Shown: positions 24,568-55,724, numbered from the stretch's first letter. The stretch is DNA of 64,000 nucleotides from an uncultured bacterium (GCA_963819815.1 CAWFXL010000001.1:1344001-1408000); one strand, 5' to 3'. Translations and numbers: made by a program. Notes: generated by a model not told the origin, from the sequence alone.

Positions 24568-24578
24568 GAGGTGACATC

Positions 24579-26232
24579 ATGGCAGGAAAAAGAATATTAT
24601 TTGGAGCTGAAGCACGTCAAAAGACTTGCAAAAGGTGTTGATACTCTTGCTGATGCAGTAAAGGTAACTCTCGGGCCCCGTGGTCGTAATGTTGCTTATG
24701 AGAAGAAATTTGGTGCACCGGCTATTACCAAAGATGGTGTAAGTGTTGCAAAAGAAATTGAACTAGCTGATCCTATTGAAAATATGGGCGCACAAATGGT
24801 TCGTGAAGTAGCAAGCAAAACTGCTGATGTTGCCGGTGATGGTACGACCACAGCTACGGTGCTTAGCGCAAGCAATTTTTCGAGAAGGTAATAAATATGT
24901 TACTGCTGGTGCTAATCCTATGGAAATTAAACGTGGTATTGATAAAGCGGTTGCCGTTGTCGTTGAAGAGATTAGAAAACTGCTCGAAAAGTAAGCGACA
25001 AAAAAGAGATTGAGCAAGTTGCAACTATTTCTGCAAACTCTGATTCGACTATTGGTGAAGCAGATTGCTGAAGCAATGGAACGTGTTGGTCGCGATGGTG
25101 TTATTACCGTTGAAGAAGCAAAAGGCATGGAAAGTGAAATTTCATTTGTTGAAGGTATGCAATTTGATCGTGGCTATATTTCTCCTTATTTTGTAACTGA
25201 TCAGGAAAAGATGGAAGCAGTGTTACAAGATCCGTATATTCTTCTTTATGAAAAGAAGATTTCAAGCATGAAGAGCTTGCTTCCGATTCTTGAACAAGTT
25301 GCAAAATCTGGTCGTCCTCTCTTAATTATTGCAGAAGATGTTGAAGGTGAAGCTCTTGCTACCTTAGTAGTTAATAAGCTTCGTGGCACATTGAATGTTG
25401 TTGCAGTAAAAGCTCCAGGCTTTGGCGATCGTCGTAAAGCAATGCTTGAAGATATTGCAACATTAACCGGTGGTAAACTGATTTCTGAAGATATTGGTTT
25501 AAAGCTTGAAAATGTACGCTTAAAGATCTTGGTCATGCTAAGAAAGTATTAGTTACCAAAGATACCTTCACTATTATTGAAGGTGCAGGAGCATGATGCG
25601 GCTATTAAAGGTCGTATTATGCAAATCAAAGCTCAAATTGAAAATACAACATCAGATTATGATAAAGAAAAACTGCAAGAACGTCTTGCAAAACTTTCAG
25701 GTGGTGTTGCAGTTATTAAAGTTGGTGCAGCAACTGAAACAGAAATGAAAGAAAAGAAAGATCGTATTGAAGATGCACTACATGCAACACGTGCAGCAGT
25801 TGAAGAAGGTATTGTTGCTGGTGGTGGTAGTTGCATTACTTCGTGCACAAGCAGTTGTTGAAAAACTTAAACTTGAAGGTGATGAACAGCTTGGGGTGCA
25901 AGATTGTAGCGCGTGCACTTGAAGAACCACTACGTATTATTTCTTCAAATGCTGGCTTTGAAGCTTCAGTAGTTGTTAATCAAGTTCGTCAAGAAACAGG
26001 CAATATTGGTTTTGATGCAAAAACTGGCGAATATGTTGATATGATTGCAGAAGGTATTATTGATCCTGCTAAAGTAGTGCGTTCTGCATTTCAAAATGCA
26101 GCATCTATTGCTGGCTATGCTCTTAACGACTGAAGCGCTCATTACTGAGATTCCAGAAGATAAGAAAGAAGTAGCCATTCACATGGTGGTGGAATGGGCG
26201 GCGGTATGGGTGGCATGCAAGGCATGTACTAA
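24579..26232 (+). pseudogene. groEL: Chaperonin GroEL, broken as sequenced by about 9-10 single-base indels (probably sequence error)
   Basis: [13 protein letters not shown] start, [57 protein letters not shown] and GGMGGGMGGM tail are all present across frame changes. Confidence 0.9.
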
Positions 26233-26252
26233 TACCTACGCATAAAAAAATG

Positions 26253-26286
26253 AGGATCCCGTGGCTGTCAAAGGCTGCGGGATCTT
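26253..26286 (+). terminator. Terminator-like hairpin after groEL
   Basis: AGGATCCCGTGGC..GCTGCGGGATCTT stem preceded by an A-tract. Confidence 0.6.
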
Positions 26287-26337
26287 TGCTGCGGTAATAT
26301 TCTTACTTCCTTGAGCTTGCCTGATTTCTAACGTATG

Positions 26338-26389
26338 GGATTGCATTCCTACTTTTTCATAAAAAAACAGGGAGTGCAATCCATAGTCA
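26338..26389. repeat. 52-bp direct repeat (copy downstream of the ATPase) containing two pseudo-palindromic 12-mers 33 bp apart
   Basis: GGATTGCATTCCTACTTTTTCATAAAAAAACAGGGAGTGCAATCCATAGTCA; 50/52 identical to 27728..27779. Confidence 0.9.
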
Positions 26390-26445
26390 TGGGCATTGTG
26401 TGTATTGAAGGGATTTATGAGCATTCCTGAGTTCTATGAGCTGTC

Positions 26446-27678
26446 TTAATAAAGAAAGCCAAATAACCACAGTGGGATTTTTTTACCAATTCCATTTTCT
26501 ATGCTATCAATGGCAAGAAAGGCATTGTGTTCTCCTATGATCTGCTCACTGGATTTTTTGCGTCCTCCTATCTCAAAAAGATAAGTGCTATCAACTAGGA
26601 AATCAGCCTTAGGAGGTAGTTTGACGTGGTGTCTTTCAGAAACCATGGTAAGAAAAAAGAGCTCTCTTTCAGTTCCTATATGCGGATCTTCTTGGCTAAA
26701 GGCATTCATTTGATTTGGATTATCAAGATACACCTTCTCTGAATGTTTTAGGTGGTCGAGTTTATGGTTTTCCTTTCCTAGTGACCTGATAAGGGAGGCG
26801 TCTTCAAGATAGGAAAAGTAGGTTTTTAAGGTGCGAGTATCTCCTACATCGAGTATTTCTTTAATGTTATTCCAGTTTGGGGTAAAAGGTACCGATTTCG
26901 CTATGAACAATAAGAGTTCTTTAAGTTTAGTTATGCTGAGACCATTTAAATGTGGATAGATTGCTGTAAGATCCGCTTCTAGTGTACTTTGAAGATTTTG
27001 CACGAGCGTAATGACATAGAGTTCTTTATTCGGGAGCTCTAAAAAGTACGGATAGTACCCATACTTTAAATAGTACTGAAAGAGTGGCAGAACCTTGTGA
27101 TTCTTTTCTTCAAGGGCTTTAATGATCTCATCGGCATACTGTTCATGATGCTGAAGAATAGTGGAAAGCTCGAGAGCTTTTAATTCTATCGGCACATACA
27201 ATTCAAGAAACTCGCGAAATGAAAGCCCTACCATGTGATATTTGATGGCACGGCGCGCTAGATCGTGACTTCCTTGGTATACCTGAAGTGCTGAGCTTCC
27301 TGAGGTGACTACGGTGAGCTTAGGAAATGTATCGTAGATGCTTTTAAGTTCTTGAGACCAGTTAGGATACTTATGGATTTCATCAAAGGCTATATATTTT
27401 CCACCCATAGCGGAAAATTCATCAGCGATTTCATAAAGGGACGTTGTACCCATTAAAAAATGGTCGGCTTGAACATAGAGAATTGAAGGATCATAGAGGT
27501 CTTGTGACACCTTGTCCAACAAAAACTGTACAAGGGTCGTAGTTTTTCCAATGCCTCTTTGTCCCAATAAGAGAGAAAGACGATGCTTAAATGGTTGAGA
27601 TTGGATGAAATAGCGCCGATAAGGCGAGTTTTTAAGTTTTAAAAAGCCTTGGCTTAATTGTCTCAGCTCTTCAAGCAT
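26446..27678 (-). CDS. AAA+ ATPase (AAA_14/DUF4143-type) with a PD-(D/E)XK-like C-terminus
   Basis: Walker A GQRGIGKTT, Walker B AFDEIHK, SGSS, GLSFREFL, GYYP, ADFLVDSTYLFEIGGRKK; AGGAGG RBS. Confidence 0.88.
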   Translation of the reverse strand: MLEELRQLSQGFLKLKNSPYRRYFIQSQPFKHRLSLLLGQRGIGKTTTLVQFLLDKVSQDLYDPSILYVQADHFLMGTTSLYEIADEFSAMGGKYIAFDEIHKYPNWSQELKSIYDTFPKLTVVTSGSSALQVYQGSHDLARRAIKYHMVGLSFREFLELYVPIELKALELSTILQHHEQYADEIIKALEEKNHKVLPLFQYYLKYGYYPYFLELPNKELYVITLVQNLQSTLEADLTAIYPHLNGLSITKLKELLLFIAKSVPFTPNWNNIKEILDVGDTRTLKTYFSYLEDASLIRSLGKENHKLDHLKHSEKVYLDNPNQMNAFSQEDPHIGTERELFFLTMVSERHHVKLPPKADFLVDSTYLFEIGGRKKSSEQIIGEHNAFLAIDSIENGIGKKIPLWLFGFLY

Positions 27679-27693
27679 ACTGACCTCCTGGTG

Positions 27694-27779
27694 TGGATTG
27701 CATTCCTACTATATTCTATCAAATTATGGATTACATTCCTACTTTTTCATAAAAAAACAGGGAATGCAATCCATAGTCA
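27694..27779. promoter_or_regulatory. Three pseudo-palindromic operator-like boxes at a 33-bp period upstream of the ATPase
   Basis: GGATTGCATTCC 27695, GGATTACATTCC 27728, GGAATGCAATCC 27761. Confidence 0.75.
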
Positions 27780-27948
27780 GTAGCATCATGCTTGCTGTGG
27801 GTGATTGTGGCCCCCCCCCGGGGGCTTTATGGGCCTTCTCAATGGGAAATGCGGTCCTCGACATCTCGGCTTTATCAACTCAGTGGTCTTATGCGCTAAG
27901 GGTGTTTGATTCGGGCGACGTTTCTTGTAGGCAGGGGAGATTTGGCTC

Positions 27949-28815
27949 TTAGGTGTATATACACCTTGCAATTGAATTACATACTTCCAGGGCATCTTTC
28001 AGGGTATGCTGGAAAATAGACCTTCCTATTGCTGCTCCTGCAGTGCCTCCGATGATCATATCTTCCTTCAGAGAGGCCATGAGCTGGGCTGGATCTTTAA
28101 AAGAACCGCCTGCGGTGACAACCTTTGTGTTTCCAGCAGCTTCGACGATAGTTCTAAGAAGTTGAGCTCGTGTGGCATCTTTGGTGGCCTCAGGCGCATG
28201 AATTTTTACAAAGTCAGCACCAAGACATGCAGCTACGCCAACGGCCCCTGCAAGGAGCTCAGGATCGGTTGGATGAAGAATTGCTTTCCCCCGAGGGTAC
28301 ATCCAGATGATAGCAAGGAGCCCTTGTTGATGTGCTTGAAATACTGCTTGCGCAGCCTGTTCAAGCATGAGATCTTCATAGGTACTTCCTAGATAGACCG
28401 TTACTCCTATACCGGTGACGGTCAGTCCAGAGCTTTTCTGAAAGTCTACGACATCTTTGACCGTCCATAAGATTCTACTCAAAGGATCTTTCTCTTCGAT
28501 GGGTATTAGGGGCGTTTTTGAGTTGAGCTTAATAATGTAGGGGATCTTTGAGTAAGCAGAACCATAGCGTGCGATGAGGCCGAGCTGTGTAGCCATACCG
28601 CCTACGTTTGCTGTGCTTGCTATCTTAAACAGATGCTCAGGGGTATGTATTTCTTGTGAGACGGCTGCTCCTCTGAAGTCCTTATCTAAGTGCTCAATTT
28701 TATGATCAGCGGAAAAAAGAAAGAGCTTGCCTGTTCCTTTAGTAAGCAGGGTATAGTTTTTCACATATTCGCTATAAGCTGACAGGGGAACATCCTTAGG
28801 AATAAGTACGTTCAT
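27949..28815 (-). CDS. Class I fructose-bisphosphate aldolase (DhnA family)
   Basis: FSADHKIEH, IIKLNSKT, VTVYLGS, IWMYPRG, LGADFVK, GAAIGRSIFQ. Confidence 0.9.
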   Translation of the reverse strand: MNVLIPKDVPLSAYSEYVKNYTLLTKGTGKLFLFSADHKIEHLDKDFRGAAVSQEIHTPEHLFKIASTANVGGMATQLGLIARYGSAYSKIPYIIKLNSKTPLIPIEEKDPLSRILWTVKDVVDFQKSSGLTVTGIGVTVYLGSTYEDLMLEQAAQAVFQAHQQGLLAIIWMYPRGKAILHPTDPELLAGAVGVAACLGADFVKIHAPEATKDATRAQLLRTIVEAAGNTKVVTAGGSFKDPAQLMASLKEDMIIGGTAGAAIGRSIFQHTLKDALEVCNSIARCIYT

Positions 28816-28880: not shown

Positions 28881-30511
28881 TCAATTTTGGATGATCTTAT
28901 CGTGGATGAGCATTTTATGGGCAATTTTCTCAAATAGAGGCACTACGATCTGTGAAGCAAGCATTCCTCGCTTGGTAGTTTCCTTGATAGACACTACGAT
29001 GACCCGCTTATAGGAATCTTTCTCGATAATGCCCATGAAGGTAAAAAGGTGACGAGTGTGATCATATCGTCCATTGGTGATGAGCCGTGCAGTTCCTGTT
29101 TTTCCCATAATGTTGTAATTATTTATACTTGCTCGTGCAAGCGAACCTTCAGAAACTGTTTTTCGAAGAATACGTTTCATCTTTTGAATTGCTTCAAGAC
29201 TATACAGGGGACCTTCCGGTTCTTCTTTGTCATCATATAGAAGATGCAATTTCACCTTATAGCCATCATTTGCAACAATGGATAGCGCCTGTGCTATTTG
29301 TGCGAGATTGCATCGTATCTCATAGCCAAATGAGAGTGAATTTAGGGAAGCATTGGACCATCTATGGGGTGGAGAGATAACTCCTGGCGATTCTCCGGGG
29401 AAGATGCCAAGCTTCTTTGAGAAGCCAAGACGCTTATAGTGATCATAGAGTTTAGTGCCAACACGATGACCAACTTTGGCAACACCTATATTATTTGAAA
29501 ACTTAATGACATCTTCAAAAGGGATGATCCCCTTTGCTTTTGTTGTCGTAATGGGACTTCCATTAACGCGGGAGGAAAGTTTTCCTTCGCAATCGATGAG
29601 TGTATCAGGACTTATGACCCCTTCTTCCAAAGCTGCAAGTGCAAGAAATCCTTTGATTACTGAACCATATTCGTACGCATCGGTAATAATTCTGTTTTTT
29701 GTATGCTCTTGGATGATGTTCTCGGTGTTATTTGGATCAAAGTCTGGATAGTTGGCCATAACAAGAATATCTCCCGTCTCTGGATCACAGATAAGGACAG
29801 ATCCGTTTTTAGAACCTACTTGCTGGACATAGTCTTTGAGTTCTTCATAGACGAGAAATTGTAAAATCCGATCGATCGTGAGGGTTATCGGTTTTCCTTG
29901 GCACCTTCGACCAGTGTTTCTCGAGTAATATAAAACCGCTTAGCGCAATCTTTTTCAAGAAGATAGGTTGAAGCGCTTCCTGCGAGCAGGTCATTGTACA
30001 TCATCTCAAGGCCAGAGACCCCTTGGTTATCTATATTGGTGACCCCTACAATCGGTCCAACTCCTGCTATCGGATAATAACGACTTGGCTCACGTAAAAG
30101 TTTTATATCAGGTATATCGCTTAGTTCAATGAGAGCAACTTCTTCAGGGCTCAGGCGTCTTTTAATGTACATAAAGTGGCTTCTCTTAGTACGACGTAAT
30201 CGGTCTGCAGACTCTTTAAAATGGCGCGAGAGAAAATTTAAAAGGTTTTCACGATGCTCAAGTTTGGAAGGAATAATAAAAGCTGATATTGCTTCAGTGT
30301 TAAGCGCTAGGGGCTGACCTGTGCGATCGAAAATCTCCGCACGAGGAGGAGTTACGGTGATGGTCATCTTATATTGTTTTTGAGCACGACCGGTGAAAAA
30401 CTCCGAACGCTGAATTTGTACACGATATAAATTTACCACAAGAAACGCGTAGCATGCTACATAGAAGAAAAAAACAAGGGTAAGTCGTATATTAGGTTGC
30501 AGCGTGTTCAT
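28881..30511 (-). pseudogene. ftsI: Class B penicillin-binding protein (FtsI-like), split by one frameshift near 29900 (probably sequence error)
   Basis: N-terminal half TM + RAEIFDRTG + SRYYP + GVSGLE; shifted frame resumes QGKPITLTIDRILQ; transpeptidase motifs YEYGSVIK, FSNN, GKTGT. Confidence 0.85.
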
Positions 30512-30969: not shown

Positions 30970-32265
30970 ATGGTAGTAGGTAACCGATTTATTATTACTG
31001 GGTTATGCGCGATAAGTATACTCATACTAGGTAGTAGATATATATACAATAAAGCGCCACACAGCTCAGATGTAACGAACTTACCACGAGTAAGTGAGCC
31101 GGAACAAGGCCAAGAAACTCAAGCTCCTTGGAAGGCTTTTTCAACACTATCGAGTAAACAATCCTCACTCCAAACTGCGATTACTTTTTCACCGGATTCT
31201 CGCCTTCTTCTCGTTGGCTATCAAAATGGCTCTATAGAAGTTTGGGACGTAGAAAAACAGACCATAGAACGCAGTTGGGCTATACCTCAACCAGTTAAAA
31301 TATTTGCTTTTTCTCCTGACGGGAACCAGCTTGCAGCAACTTCCTCTGGAGCAAACGATACGAGTATTTACTTATGGGAATGGCCAACAGGTAAATTACT
31401 CCATGAACTGCATGGCCATGCAACAAAGAGGTGCTCAGAGTATTTCTGCGAAGCCAGTGACTGTTGCTGCACTGTTAACTTTTTGCAGTATATGGCTAAC
31501 GGGCAACTGGTATCCGCATCAAGTAAAAATGGTGCCATTACTATTTGGGATCCAAAATCTGGGCAGTTAGTACGCAGTATTACTATCCCGCTAGGTAATG
31601 TAACAGAATGCGTGGAGGATTCATCCCATGAGAAGCTCACAAGTAATGCGCCAGAATATGAGGCTATAGCTATCTCCCCTGATCAAAAATATATCGCCTC
31701 CACCCGCAATTGCACTTTTTACCCGTTAGAAAAGTATCCAGATTGGGATCCCGAGATAGCGTACGATTACAGAAACGAAGTTTGCGTTAACCTATGGGAT
31801 GGTACAACTGGAAATCTAACTAAGACAATCGCTACCGATATCATTGATTACGCTCGCGATGCAGGTACTAACGAACTCACCTTTTCACCTAACGGTACCT
31901 TTCTTGCTGTTGGTTGCGCTAAAGCTCTAATATGTCTTATAAATACGCATGATTGGTCTGCTAAACTGTTAGATCTTTCAGAATGTAGAAATAGAGAGCT
32001 CTCTCTTCATGAACGCTATTCCCTCATCTTCTCACCACAATCTGACTTTGTTGCAGCAACCGTAAATGAGGATTGGATAAGCCCGGGGATAAAACCGCGT
32101 GCAGCAATACTATGGGATGTTACTTCAGGGAAAATTGTGCAAAAATGGGACCTGGGTTACCACATAGCCTTTTCGCCAAATGCACAGCTCTTCGCAGTTA
32201 GTCTACTGTCTGCGCAAGAAAATGGCACTCAAACTTCTACCCTGCAACTCTACAAGCGCTCATAA
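30970..32265 (+). CDS. WD40-repeat protein with N-terminal membrane anchor/signal
   Basis: Repeated FSPD/N...WD motifs (ITFSPDSRLL..IEVWDV, FAFSPDGNQL..YLWEW, ITIWDP, VNLWDG, ILWDV). Confidence 0.88.
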   Translation: MVVGNRFIITGLCAISILILGSRYIYNKAPHSSDVTNLPRVSEPEQGQETQAPWKAFSTLSSKQSSLQTAITFSPDSRLLLVGYQNGSIEVWDVEKQTIERSWAIPQPVKIFAFSPDGNQLAATSSGANDTSIYLWEWPTGKLLHELHGHATKRCSEYFCEASDCCCTVNFLQYMANGQLVSASSKNGAITIWDPKSGQLVRSITIPLGNVTECVEDSSHEKLTSNAPEYEAIAISPDQKYIASTRNCTFYPLEKYPDWDPEIAYDYRNEVCVNLWDGTTGNLTKTIATDIIDYARDAGTNELTFSPNGTFLAVGCAKALICLINTHDWSAKLLDLSECRNRELSLHERYSLIFSPQSDFVAATVNEDWISPGIKPRAAILWDVTSGKIVQKWDLGYHIAFSPNAQLFAVSLLSAQENGTQTSTLQLYKRS

Positions 32266-54232: not shown

Positions 54233-54316
54233 AAAAGAGCCGGTTCTTTTATATAAATCTTGCTAAAAAGAGCCGGCTCTTTTATTCTATAGCTTAGAAA
54301 AAGAGCCGGCTCTTTT
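54233..54316. promoter_or_regulatory. Three 18-bp palindromes at a 33-bp period overlapping a sigma70-like promoter
   Basis: AAAAGAGCCGG(T/C)TCTTTT at 54233, 54266, 54299; TTGCTA (54260) -N17- TATTCT (54283) brackets the middle copy. Confidence 0.85.
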
Positions 54317-54365: not shown

Positions 54366-55724
54366 ATGAATCGCACCTGCATGGCTTTTCTGAAAGAATG
54401 GCTTATCGCGCCCACGCGCAAACCGCTTATTATTCGTGGAGCACGACAAGTTGGCAAAACCTGGGCAGTGAGACATTTAGCAGAATTAGAAGGTTTAAAG
54501 CTCGTTGAGTTCAATTTCGAAAGGAATCCGGAGTATGCAGATCTCTTTGAATCGAATGATCCAAAAGAAATTATACGCCGCATTGAGCAGCGATTTGCCG
54601 TACGGGTTGATCCAGGCAAAACACTTTTGTTTCTCGACGAAATTCAAGCAAAACCTGAACTTATAGAAAAATTGCGATGGTTTTATGAAGAAATGCCGCA
54701 ACTAGCTGTTATCGCTGCGGGGTCCTTGTTAGAATTTGTTTTAGGCGTCCATGCTCTCAAGATGCCTGTGGGTCGCGTGAGCTTTGCATACCTTGAGCCG
54801 TTGTCATTTATTGAATTTCTTCAAGCTCAACACAAAGATCAGCTTGTTGATCTTATAAAATCATACACCTGGAATGAGGAAATTAATAAGGTAGTCCATG
54901 CAGAGCTCATGAGGTTATTTAAGGAATATGTATATGTTGGAGGGCTTCCAGGAGCAGTATCTGAGTGGATTGAGGGAGGGTCTCTCGCAAAAACCAATGA
55001 GATGCATAATGATTTATTGGGCTCATATAGAGCAGATTTTAGTAAATATAGTGGTCGGGTTTCTCCCGATATTTTGAATGAGGTTATAGATACAATACCT
55101 CTCTCTTTAGCCAAAAAATTTATCTATAGTCACGTGCAAACGGATGCCTCGCTTGTCCAGGTTAAGGCAGCGGTGCAGCTCTTGACCCGCGCTCGCGTAG
55201 CCAGTGCAGTGAAAGCTACTGCTGCAAATGGCATACCTTTGGGGGCTGAGGTTAATGAAAAGTTCAACAAGATGATTCTTCTTGATGTTGGGTTATGTTC
55301 TGCATTGCTTGGTTTACAGTTGGGACAATTGGAGGATACTGATGAACTTGATCTGGTTAACAAGGGTGGTATTGCAGAGCAAGTTGTTGGACAGCTGCTA
55401 CGCACTATAGAACCATGGTATATCGAGCCAGCGCTTTATTATTGGACTCGAATTGAGAGAGGCGCTGAAGCAGAGATAGATTATGTTATCCAGCACGGCA
55501 CTACCGTGGTGCCTATAGAAGTCAAAGCAGGCAGTTCAGGAAAATTAAAGTCACTCCATTTTTTTATGCAGATCAAAGGGCTATCGACCGCAGTACGTTT
55601 TTGCTCGGGCCTGCCTCAGATAACTCAGGTATCAGTAAAAGATACTCAATCCAGTGAGATTAACTACGAGTTACGATCTATGCCATTTTACCTTATCAGT
55701 GAGCTTCATAGGCTGCTTGCCTAA
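54366..55724 (+). CDS. AAA+ ATPase (AAA_14 + DUF4143) with a PD-(D/E)XK-like C-terminus
   Basis: RKPLIIRGARQVGKT, LFLDEIQ, AAGSLL, PVGRV, PLSFIEFL, VGGLP, AEIDYVI..VPIEVKAG; AGGAG RBS before ATG 54366. Confidence 0.9.
   Translation: MNRTCMAFLKEWLIAPTRKPLIIRGARQVGKTWAVRHLAELEGLKLVEFNFERNPEYADLFESNDPKEIIRRIEQRFAVRVDPGKTLLFLDEIQAKPELIEKLRWFYEEMPQLAVIAAGSLLEFVLGVHALKMPVGRVSFAYLEPLSFIEFLQAQHKDQLVDLIKSYTWNEEINKVVHAELMRLFKEYVYVGGLPGAVSEWIEGGSLAKTNEMHNDLLGSYRADFSKYSGRVSPDILNEVIDTIPLSLAKKFIYSHVQTDASLVQVKAAVQLLTRARVASAVKATAANGIPLGAEVNEKFNKMILLDVGLCSALLGLQLGQLEDTDELDLVNKGGIAEQVVGQLLRTIEPWYIEPALYYWTRIERGAEAEIDYVIQHGTTVVPIEVKAGSSGKLKSLHFFMQIKGLSTAVRFCSGLPQITQVSVKDTQSSEINYELRSMPFYLISELHRLLA

What the first reader, a model, noticed from the sequence alone, without database searches (positions are those of the whole stretch)
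27695..27772. 33-bp-periodic palindrome triad upstream of AAA_14-type ATPase #1
Seen: pseudo-palindromic 12-mers start at 27695, 27728 and 27761 (exactly 33 bp, about three helical turns), just upstream of the AGGAGG RBS. A weak minus-strand promoter (ATGAAA-N16-CATAAT) brackets the middle box. The geometry is identical to the triad at 54233..54316 although the sequence is unrelated.
Basis: seen in the sequence. Interest (0 to 1): 0.7.

Follow-up and report, generated by a model that had tools for sequence, protein, structure and literature searches.

The report
Private operator boxes of ATPase-nuclease gene
Three short near-palindromic DNA boxes spaced exactly 33 bp apart lie on the promoter of an uncharacterised ATPase-nuclease gene and travel with that gene across many bacterial phyla, so they are most likely the sites through which the protein controls its own expression.

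Summary
GGATTGCATTCC-type 12-mers start at 27695, 27728 and 27761 (5 matches in the window against 0.65 expected). They lie just upstream of the AGGAGG site and ATG of a minus-strand 410-aa AAA_14 ATPase (26446-27678).

The boxes are conserved. 53 of 57 orthologous loci from at least eight phyla carry the same box within 150 bp upstream, and 33 of 44 neighbouring boxes are exactly 33 bp apart. Across 49 orthologues the upstream box holds a -35 (TTGCAw), a TAtaaT -10 follows 17 nt later, and the next box covers the predicted start site.

The protein models as AAA+ / lid / winged helix / small C-terminal domain. It matches the untested PADLOC defence candidate PDC-S01.

About half of the 29 such genes in this 1.64-Mb chlamydial genome carry their own, different arrays. 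28 of 28 homologues of ATPase #2 show a 33-bp repeat.

Best reading (about 0.65): private operators read by the protein's own winged helix, giving autorepression. Binding itself is untested.

New here: a copy of the operator pair also lies downstream of the gene, and a sister genome keeps one solo copy with no gene.

Earlier agents of this scan noted similar arrays in other genomes. I found no paper describing them.

The parts
27695..27706 (-). Box 1, the proximal operator box (GGAATGCAATCC in gene orientation). It covers the predicted transcription start.
   Evidence: Its register relative to the conserved -10 comes from the 49-orthologue consensus.
27728..27739 (-). Box 2, the middle operator box (GGAATGTAATCC in gene orientation). 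It occupies the -35 position of the conserved promoter layout.
27761..27772 (-). Box 3, the distal operator box (GGATTGCATTCC in gene orientation, containing TTGCAT). Together with box 2 it forms a complete older promoter-operator unit and a 23-nt-arm inverted repeat.
27708..27721 (-). Predicted -10 region between boxes 2 and 1. TATAGT (27713 to 27708) is in register with the orthologues' TAtaaT. An overlapping TGATAGAAT (27721 to 27713) gives an extended -10.
   Evidence: Read; register. This is inferred: no transcription start data exist.
27684..27689 (-). AGGAGG ribosome-binding site, 5 nt before the ATG.
26446..27678 (-). ATPase #1, 410 aa. Domains: AAA_14 ATPase (about 1-160), helical lid (171-240), winged helix (246-318) and a small alpha/beta C-terminal domain (321-410). 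It matches PADLOC candidate PDC-S01.
27725..27845 (-). Upstream copy (B) of the duplicated unit. It consists of the inverted-repeat operator pair (27725-27785) plus a tail of about 60 bp.
26336..26450 (-). Downstream copy (A) of the same unit. It holds boxes at 26338-26349 and 26371-26382 (33 bp apart) and a diverged tail that abuts the gene's stop codon. No gene follows it.
54234..54315 (+). Second triad, AAAGAGCCGG(C/T)TCTTT at 54234, 54267 and 54300. It is the private array of ATPase #2.
54366..55724 (+). ATPase #2, 452 aa, with AAA_14 and DUF4143 domains. PDC-S01 match E 3e-146.

Best explanation
The triad is the private operator array of the adjacent ATPase gene. The gene encodes an AAA+ ATPase fused to a winged-helix DNA-binding domain and a small nuclease-like C-terminal domain (family AAA_14/DUF4143, the PADLOC candidate PDC-S01). 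I infer that the protein's own winged helix reads the 12-bp near-palindromic boxes (consensus GGAWTGCAWTCC), one dimer per box. The fixed 33-bp (about three-turn) spacing would let neighbouring dimers touch and bind cooperatively, possibly three dimers as one hexamer. The middle box covers the -35 position, the -10 lies between the middle and proximal boxes, and the proximal box covers the start site. Occupancy should therefore shut the promoter, giving negative autoregulation that keeps a potentially harmful ATPase-nuclease at a low level. Shown here: the boxes, their spacing, their conservation with the gene, their register with a conserved promoter consensus, the domain order of the model, and that paralogues have different boxes. 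Inferred: that this protein binds them, that it does so as dimers or a higher oligomer, and that the effect is repression.
For: 1. The boxes are non-random and private. There are 5 matches against 0.65 expected in the window, and the only cluster in the genome is here.

2. They are conserved with the gene across phyla. 53 of 57 orthologous loci (Chlamydiota, Verrucomicrobiota, Nitrospirota, Desulfobacterota, Dependentiae, Ignavibacteria, Campylobacterota, Gammaproteobacteria and others, 41-73% protein identity) carry the box upstream. Box density is about 77 times higher upstream than elsewhere. Spacing is 33 bp in 33 of 44 neighbour pairs and 32-34 bp in 43 of 44.

3. Promoter register. In 49 orthologues the consensus reads box[TTGCAw], 17 nt, TAtaaT, 1 nt, box.

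4. Positions 4 and 9 of the box take A or T independently, without staying complementary. That fits protein read-out better than a base-paired hairpin.

5. The AlphaFold model (pLDDT 90) shows AAA+, lid, winged helix and a C-terminal domain. The best structural matches are the archaeal ATPases 2qen and 2fna, and ORC or Orc1/Cdc6 bound to DNA. The isolated C-terminal half matches winged-helix repressors (ArsR/SmtB, MarR, IscR-DNA) at Z 7-8.

6. The pattern runs through the family. In this genome 15 of 29 AAA_14-type genes have at least 3 copies of a 12-mer in the 250 bp upstream, against 17 of 1,092 other ORFs, and each has a different box. A lag-33 repeat is present upstream of 28 of 28 homologues of ATPase #2, 24 of 57 orthologues of ATPase #1 and 9 of 20 own paralogues, against 41 of 1,092 control ORFs.

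7. Four paralogues that are 52-55% identical overall have different boxes. Their winged-helix segment is more diverged (36-44% identity) than the AAA domain (58-66%).
Against: No binding, footprint or transcription start data exist.

A tree-aware test of co-variation between box position 2 (G or T) and winged-helix residues 268, 269 and 281 was inconclusive. The raw association is strong (15 of 19 T-type loci have D268+E281, against 2 of 23 G-type), but there are only 5-6 independent pairs and the residue differs in at most one of them.

The window's own -35 (TAGGAA) is poor, and the consensus scan does not call this promoter.

In the Bacteroidales homologues of ATPase #2 the repeats are direct, not palindromic, and lie just upstream of the promoter rather than on it. 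The sign of regulation and the dimer model may therefore not hold for the whole family.

The second copy of the operator pair downstream of the gene, and its retention as a solo copy in a sister genome where no orthologue was found (that genome is 67% complete), are not required by plain autoregulation.

Winged-helix Z-scores of 7-8 are middling.
Confidence: 0.65

Rival explanations
1. The boxes are bound by the ATPase, but they act as an upstream assembly or activation platform (positive autoregulation or ATP-dependent switching) rather than as a simple repressor operator.
For: In 24 or so Bacteroidales homologues of ATPase #2 the 3-4 direct 33-bp repeats end upstream of the TAnnTTTG promoter element. 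AAA+ proteins commonly assemble on phased upstream sites (general knowledge). The window's own promoter has a weak -35, which could need help.
Against: In the ATPase #1 orthogroup the boxes overlap the -35 and the predicted +1. That is the classical position for occlusion.
Confidence: 0.15
2. The boxes, or the 115-125-bp unit that holds two of them, are cis sites for movement or replication of a one-gene cassette. They would serve as recombination or attachment-like sites or as iteron-like origin repeats, and any regulatory role is secondary.
For: The unit is duplicated on both sides of the gene. The inverted-repeat part is about 95% identical between the copies, while the tail is much more diverged.

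The same-genus genome G001 has the same groEL and deoC flanks with one solo unit and no gene. Eight other relatives have no box at that site.

A second paralogue (C1:849767) also has a roughly 200-bp copy of its box region after the gene.

Some orthologues are tightly flanked by direct repeats: L053 252 bp, L048 26 bp, L059 29 bp (the tRNA-SeC 3' end), L061 and L062.

One 1,852-bp contig has a 99-bp terminal overlap, meaning a circle or tandem copy of a single gene.

Orthologues sit at different sites within one genus.
Against: Downstream boxes are the exception. Only the window among the 57+1 loci has a clear downstream pair.

Flanking exact repeats are only weakly enriched in this genome: 3 of 29 against 27 of 1,092.

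The flanking repeats in other loci are unrelated local sequences, not boxes.

No recombinase is present in the cassette, and no match was found in the plasmid collection for the box region.

Simple homologous recombination between duplicated promoter regions would explain the solo copy.
Confidence: 0.12
3. The feature is only a structured nucleic-acid element with no cognate protein: a cruciform, a terminator-like hairpin between groEL and deoC, or an intergenic repeat.
For: Boxes 2 and 3 fold as a strong hairpin if transcribed (-23.3 kcal/mol, z -7.6), and the downstream copy also folds (-17.3 kcal/mol, z -3.4). The solo copy in G001 sits between two convergent or unrelated genes.
Against: No U-tract follows either hairpin and no Rfam family reaches its threshold. 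The boxes keep a 33-bp spacing and a promoter register in orthologues that have only two boxes in varying relative orientation. Positions 4 and 9 are not kept complementary. The element occurs only with this gene, not as a dispersed repeat.
Confidence: 0.04
4. The boxes are sites for a different, host-encoded transcription factor.
For: None directly. It cannot be excluded without binding data.
Against: The same box follows the gene through at least eight phyla. Each paralogue in one genome has a different box. The box occurs nowhere else in the genome as a cluster.
Confidence: 0.03

Closest known systems
PADLOC phage-defence candidate PDC-S01 (Pfam AAA_14 + DUF4143; COG1373)
   Same: ATPase #1 matches PDC-S01 models (best E 1.8e-27) and ATPase #2 matches at E 3e-146. 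Both are single genes with an N-terminal AAA+ ATPase. DUF4143 is classed in the PD-(D/E)XK nuclease superfamily (PMC3424549, table row seen).
   Different: The catalogue names only the protein. In the passages I read I found no description of its cis elements. The function is untested: it is called the fourth most common defence candidate with validation pending (PMC12988326, passages). The one PDC-S01 tested in E. coli was not among the four of eight candidates that protected against T4, T5 or T7 (10.1101/2024.09.26.614923, passages). ATPase #1 is a divergent member whose DUF4143 score is below Pfam's cut-off.
Archaeal Orc1/Cdc6 with origin recognition boxes next to its own gene (structures 2qby, 2v1u)
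   Same: It has the same AAA+ / lid / winged-helix order (Foldseek matches) and repeated, partly inverted boxes beside the gene that encodes the binding protein. The ORB layout is from general knowledge.
   Different: No evidence of origin function was found here. The boxes sit on a sigma-70-type promoter, the period is a strict 33 bp, the protein has an extra nuclease-like C-terminal domain, and the genes are many per genome and horizontally mobile.
Plasmid iterons with autoregulated Rep initiators (for example pPS10, R6K, RK2; recalled from general knowledge)
   Same: Both have phased repeats specific to one protein, placed next to and overlapping the promoter of that protein's gene, and travelling with it.
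   Different: Typical iteron periods are about 22 bp, and Rep proteins are tandem winged-helix proteins without an ATPase. There is no DnaA box or AT-rich unwinding element here, and no replicon. One short circular-or-tandem contig is the only hint.
Controller (C) proteins of restriction-modification systems and their C-boxes (recalled from general knowledge)
   Same: Both are self-contained, horizontally mobile nuclease-bearing units that carry their own palindromic operator on their own promoter, so expression is self-limited after transfer.
   Different: Here the regulator, ATPase and nuclease-like domain are one polypeptide. There are two to five boxes at 33-bp spacing rather than one paired C-box, and there is no methyltransferase partner.

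Membership tests
Pfam AAA_14 (PF13173) | HMM score over the curated cut-off (27 bits) | tested here: met
   ATPase #1 scores 88 bits, E 6.8e-25, over residues 32-158. ATPase #2 scores 77 bits.
Pfam DUF4143 (PF13635) | HMM score over the curated cut-off (28.1 bits) | tested here: not met
   ATPase #1 scores 15.5 bits, E 0.015, and only over residues 248-327, the winged-helix part. ATPase #2 meets the cut-off at 96 bits. ATPase #1 is therefore filed as AAA_14 / PDC-S01-like, not as a scored DUF4143 member.
PADLOC PDC-S01 | Match to a PDC-S01 profile as a single gene | tested here: met
   PDLC04787 E 1.8e-27 over residues 31-327 for ATPase #1. PDLC04788 E 3.3e-146 over the full length for ATPase #2.
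PADLOC PDC-S01 | Anti-phage activity | not testable with these tools
   The passages read say validation is pending. The one tested representative was not among the four of eight candidates reported to protect.
PD-(D/E)XK nuclease superfamily | Catalytic D ... (D/E)xK motif on a restriction-endonuclease-like alpha/beta core | tested here: inconclusive
   D359, E369, K375 and Q379 are invariant or nearly so in 58 sequences, but the motif reads E-V-G-G-K-N-K, not ExK. Residues 331-410 of the protein aligned to only one listed chain (2czr, Z 7.3). BLASTP against ATPase #2 did not align the C-terminal parts.
AAA+ / lid / winged-helix proteins of the Orc1/Cdc6 and ATPase_2 type | Domain order AAA+, helical lid, winged helix | tested here: met
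   Model pLDDT 90. Foldseek matches 2qen and 2fna at E about 2e-7 over about 385 columns, and ORC4 and Orc1/Cdc6-DNA complexes at E 1e-5 to 1e-7. The isolated half aligns to the winged helices of 2fna and 2qen and to ArsR, MarR and IscR repressors at Z 7.2-7.9, which is middling.
Autoregulatory operator | Repeated or palindromic sites overlapping the gene's own core promoter | tested here: met
   The consensus of 49 orthologues reads box[TTGCAw], 17 nt, TAtaaT, 1 nt, box. This rests on promoter consensus only; no transcription start data exist.
Autoregulatory operator | Sites conserved with the gene and specific to it | tested here: met
   53 of 57 orthologous loci carry the box. Paralogues have different boxes. 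No other cluster exists in the genome.
Autoregulatory operator | The gene product binds the sites and changes transcription | not testable with these tools
   This needs EMSA or footprinting and reporter assays. The tree-aware co-variation test was inconclusive.
Plasmid iteron / origin | Extrachromosomal replicon with an unwinding element next to the repeats | tested here: inconclusive
   The locus is chromosomal, between groEL and deoC. The box region has no match in the plasmid collection. Protein homologues (35-40% identity) occur on 24 plasmid records. One 1,852-bp contig has a 99-bp terminal overlap.

The most novel reading that the evidence does not exclude
The 33-bp phased private array is more than an operator. 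It would be the assembly platform on which three dimers (one hexamer) of the ATPase-nuclease are parked on self DNA in an inactive state, so that every paralogue has its own address. The same promoter-operator unit would also serve as the crossover point by which the one-gene cassette leaves and re-enters chromosomes, leaving a solo unit behind as in the sister genome. This would make AAA_14/DUF4143 (PDC-S01) genes self-addressed, self-mobilising single-gene elements rather than ordinary defence genes.
Probability: 0.1. Interest if true: 0.85.

Novelty: new variant of a known kind. Interest (0 to 1): 0.6.

Why it matters
PDC-S01 (AAA_14/DUF4143) is described as one of the most common candidate defence genes in prokaryotes, yet its function is untested (PMC12988326, passages).

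A conserved, paralogue-specific DNA address with a fixed 33-bp period gives several things:
- a concrete ligand for biochemistry and cryo-EM;
- a prediction that the winged helix is sequence-specific;
- a likely reason why heterologous tests may fail or be toxic, since the native promoter is self-controlled;
- a natural specificity matrix, with about 20-30 paralogues and different boxes in one 1.6-Mb genome.

The empty site with a solo operator in a sister genome gives a dated gain-or-loss event for a single-gene cassette.

I found no paper describing these arrays. Full-text searches were: DUF4143 (4 papers), PDC-S01 (7), COG1373 (8), guilt-by-embedding (10), and PABY2304/SSO1545/DUF234 (noise only). 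Supplements of these papers were not read.

Earlier agents of this scan reported the same kind of array in other genomes.

Tried and rejected
- Known RNA family: the Rfam scan of 26150-28000 found nothing near gathering scores.

- Intrinsic terminator: the scan found only the groEL terminator-like site at 26274-26295, and none at the boxes.

- Promoter of ATPase #2: no site reaches the scan's threshold. My TTGCTA-17-TATTCT reading is 8 of 12 and only a guess.

- Co-variation of box position 2 with winged-helix residues: the raw association did not survive the independent-pairs test.

- Flanking direct repeats as a general hallmark: only 3 of 29 against 27 of 1,092 in this genome.

- Expression or start-site evidence: no RNA holder was listed by the look-up of sequencing runs.

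Nothing was folded.

- Sequence search of solved structures: only chance-level hits, E at least 0.29.

- NCBIfam: no family for ATPase #1, ATPase #2 or the PDC-S27-type paralogue.

- Plasmid DNA search with the box region: no match.

- Phage collection: one 5.9-kb record with a 31%-identical homologue, not followed.

- The single exact box on contig C2 (27501) lies inside an ABC-ATPase-like coding region with no partner at 33 bp. I take it as chance (0.34 expected).

- Loci dropped before the count: of the 80 loci, 7 had a partial or offset N-terminus (L066, L073, L075, L086, L092, L095, L097). 16 distant ones (L099-L114, at most 43% identity) were also set aside; 14 of those 16 were examined separately. 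Among those 14, several carry other repeated boxes (L102, L104, L107, L109, L111, L112) and several show none that I could recognise (L099, L101, L103, L105, L106).

Full report
**1. The observation**

The gene next to the finding lies on the minus strand at 26446-27678 (410 aa). It has an ATG at 27676-27678 and AGGAGG at 27684-27689.

Three 12-mers start at 27695 (GGATTGCATTCC), 27728 (GGATTACATTCC) and 27761 (GGATTGCATTCC on the minus strand). They are exactly 33 bp apart.
- Allowing one mismatch, the window has 5 matches against 0.65 expected, and 0 of 100 shuffles reach 5.
- The four exact copies in the 1.64-Mb genome are all at this locus.
- Each box is a 5-of-6-pair palindrome.
- Boxes 1 and 2 head a 33-nt direct repeat. 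Boxes 1 and 3 are exact inverted copies. Boxes 2 and 3 form a 23-nt-arm inverted repeat.

The triad at 54234/54267/54300 (AAAGAGCCGGCTCTTT) is equally real. It precedes a second ATPase at 54366-55724.

**2. The gene**

Pfam finds AAA_14 (88 bits). DUF4143 is found only below its cut-off (15.5 bits).

PADLOC profiles place ATPase #1 (E 1.8e-27) and ATPase #2 (E 3e-146) in the candidate system PDC-S01. A 488-aa paralogue falls in PDC-S27.

An AlphaFold model built on 58 orthologues has pLDDT 90. It shows:
- an AAA+ core (about 1-160);
- a helical lid (171-240);
- a three-helix, two-strand winged helix (246-318);
- a small alpha/beta C-terminal domain (321-410).

Foldseek's best matches are the archaeal ATPases 2qen and 2fna, then ORC4 and Orc1/Cdc6-DNA complexes and STAND proteins.

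The C-terminal half, modelled alone (pLDDT 88), matches winged-helix repressors. Foldseek gives E 0.03-0.1, and VIA-align gives Z 7.2-7.9 to HlyU, SmtB, MarR, IscR-DNA and the winged helices of 2fna and 2qen. These scores are middling.

The last 80 residues gave only one listed match (2czr, Z 7.3). D359, E369, K375 and Q379 are conserved, but the motif is not a textbook ExK. Nuclease membership of ATPase #1 is therefore open.

**3. Are the boxes tied to the gene?**

The search for related loci returned 80 loci. I used the 57 with a complete N-terminus and at least 45% identity. The 23 dropped loci are listed under Tried and rejected.
- 53 of 57 have at least one box (up to 2 mismatches to GGAWTGCAWTCC) within 150 bp upstream.
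- 27 loci have two boxes, 7 have three and 1 has four.
- There are 97 boxes in 8,550 bp upstream against 44 in 298,363 bp elsewhere.
- Neighbour spacing is 33 bp in 33 of 44 pairs and 32-34 bp in 43 of 44.
- By their titles the records come from Chlamydiota, Verrucomicrobiota, Nitrospirota, Desulfobacterota, Dependentiae, Ignavibacteria, Campylobacterota, Gammaproteobacteria and others.

**4. Where the boxes sit**

I aligned 49 orthologous upstream regions on the box. The consensus reads:

aTA-GtATTGCAtTCC-(9 nt)-aTGtTAtaaT-a-GGATTGCAATCC

- TTGCAw inside the upstream box is a -35 (T43 T49 G46 C45 A47 of 49).
- 17 nt later comes TAtaaT (T36 A42 .. T36).
- The next box starts one base after it, so the start site should fall inside that box.

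In the window the in-register -10 is TATAGT (27713 to 27708), overlapped by TGATAGAAT. The -35 position lies in box 2 and the predicted start lies in box 1.

Box 3 plus box 2 form a second, older-looking unit: TTGCAT, 17 nt including TG, then a decayed AAAAGT.

This geometry is that of repression by occlusion. It rests on consensus only.

Positions 4 and 9 of the box vary between A and T without staying complementary. That argues for protein read-out rather than pairing.

**5. The family-wide pattern**

The genome has 38 AAA_14 matches, 30 of them over the cut-off. Relatives in the genus have 12-60.

Reading the 300 bp upstream of the 30 genes shows that most carry their own repeated, often palindromic boxes.
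- The 400-460-aa genes have a 32-33-bp period: C1:744492, 1166983, 1398348, 310178, 849767, 1533939 and this one.
- The 480-500-aa ATPase_2/PDC-S27 genes have alternately inverted boxes about 25-28 bp apart.

Control: at least 3 copies of a 12-mer (up to 1 mismatch, either strand) occur in the 250 bp upstream of 15 of 29 AAA_14-type genes, against 17 of 1,092 other ORFs. Several of those 17 are neighbours of such genes.

Direct-only triads at 31-35 bp form 7 clusters in the genome, 4 of them before these genes. No more than 2 clusters in any other spacing class lie there.

Homologues of ATPase #2:
- 28 of 28 have a lag-33 repeat upstream, and 43 of 63 neighbour spacings are 33 bp.
- The 91%-identical copy keeps the same triad.
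- The 55%-identical copy already has a different box.
- The Bacteroidales copies have 3-4 direct repeats just upstream of a TAnnTTTG element.

Four paralogues that are 52-55% identical have four different boxes. Their winged-helix segment is less conserved (36-44%) than the AAA domain (58-66%).

**6. The co-variation test**

Box position 2 is G in most chlamydial loci and T in most Nitrospirota and Desulfobacterota loci. It tracks D268/E281 in the winged helix: 15 of 19 T-type loci against 2 of 23 G-type loci.

On a tree built without the winged-helix columns there are only 5-6 independent pairs, and the residue differs in at most one of them. The association can therefore be explained by ancestry. 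It is no evidence either way.

**7. The duplicated unit and the empty site**

The stretch 27725-27785 (boxes 2 and 3) recurs at 26336-26395, about 95% identical. A more diverged tail of about 60 bp reaches the stop codon.

A same-genus genome (G001, about 90% identical flanks) has the groEL terminator, one copy of the unit with two exact boxes, and the deoC flank, but no ATPase. No orthologue was found in G001 with this query; that genome is 67% complete.

Eight other relatives have no box after groEL. Orthologues in the genus sit elsewhere, each with boxes upstream.

Another paralogue (C1:849767) also has a roughly 200-bp copy of its box region after the gene.

Some orthologues are tightly flanked by unrelated direct repeats: L053 252 bp, L048 26 bp, L059 29 bp (the 3' end of tRNA-SeC), L061 and L062. 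One 1,852-bp contig has a 99-bp terminal overlap.

In this genome, however, flanking exact repeats are only weakly enriched (3 of 29 against 27 of 1,092). Downstream boxes are absent from the other 57 loci.

I read this as follows. The gene with its promoter-operator moves as a single-gene cassette. The duplicated operator unit allowed loss of the gene in G001 (or gain in the window's lineage) by recombination between the copies. Whether the protein takes part is unknown.

**8. Verdict**

The best explanation (0.65) is a private autoregulatory operator array read by the protein's own winged helix. The 33-bp period would be set by the oligomer.

Rivals:
- activation platform, 0.15;
- mobility or replication site, 0.12;
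- bare hairpin, 0.04;
- another factor, 0.03.

The kind (self-operator, iteron-like phased sites) is known. Its association with this very common, untested ATPase-nuclease family, the strict 33-bp period and the per-paralogue addresses were not found in the papers searched.

Earlier agents of this scan reported the same pattern on other DNA. My tests were made independently of those notes. I read them only.

Noticed in passing
G000:C1 78367, 1505841, 602749, 609473, 221171, 208967, 1013292 (gene starts; outside the window): The 480-500-aa paralogues (Pfam ATPase_2, PADLOC PDC-S27) also carry private arrays, but with alternately inverted boxes about 25-28 bp apart (a 50-55-bp direct period). 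One example has seven boxes at exactly 25 bp before C1:78367.
   Followed up: partly
window 24571-26232 and 28881-30511: groEL is split into at least four ORFs, and a penicillin-binding protein into two. A C10G5 run lies at 27811-27825. These are either frameshift errors of the assembly or pseudogenes. The ATPase gene itself is intact.
   Followed up: no
L078 (1,852-bp contig, Ignavibacteriaceae MAG): The contig holds only the ATPase orthologue with its boxes and has an exact 99-bp terminal direct overlap. That means a 1,753-bp circle or a tandem copy.
   Followed up: partly
L059 2227-2255 and 3898-3926: The ATPase orthologue, and nothing else of size, lies between two 29-bp copies of the 3' end of a tRNA-SeC gene. 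This looks like the footprint of an integrated island, but no integrase lies between the repeats.
   Followed up: partly
L053, -395 to -143 and +3 to +255 relative to the gene: A 252-bp exact direct repeat brackets the promoter-operator plus the gene.
   Followed up: no
G000:C1 848000-850200: The paralogue at C1:849767 has its upstream box region (TATTTTTATACA boxes, 33-bp period) copied downstream of the gene at 83-86% identity over about 200 bp.
   Followed up: partly
G000:C1 926031-928622: Two AAA_14 genes lie head to head and share one intergenic region with AAATTCGACATCGAGCTTCGAATTT-type palindromes about 73 bp apart, not 33.
   Followed up: no
G000:C1 1479752, 1487382, 110523, 1271934, 727897 (gene starts): A few ORFs not classed as AAA_14-type also have four repeated 12-mers upstream. 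The one at 727897 (491 aa) is a sub-threshold ATPase hit. The others were not identified.
   Followed up: no
L131 (record titled Candidatus Dependentiae MAG): This locus holds a 91%-identical copy of ATPase #2 with the same triad. That is far closer than the next relative (55%), suggesting recent transfer or a binning error.
   Followed up: no
window 30970-32265: A 431-aa WD40 beta-propeller protein, unusual for bacteria but known in amoeba-associated chlamydiae (the second part is recalled).
   Followed up: no
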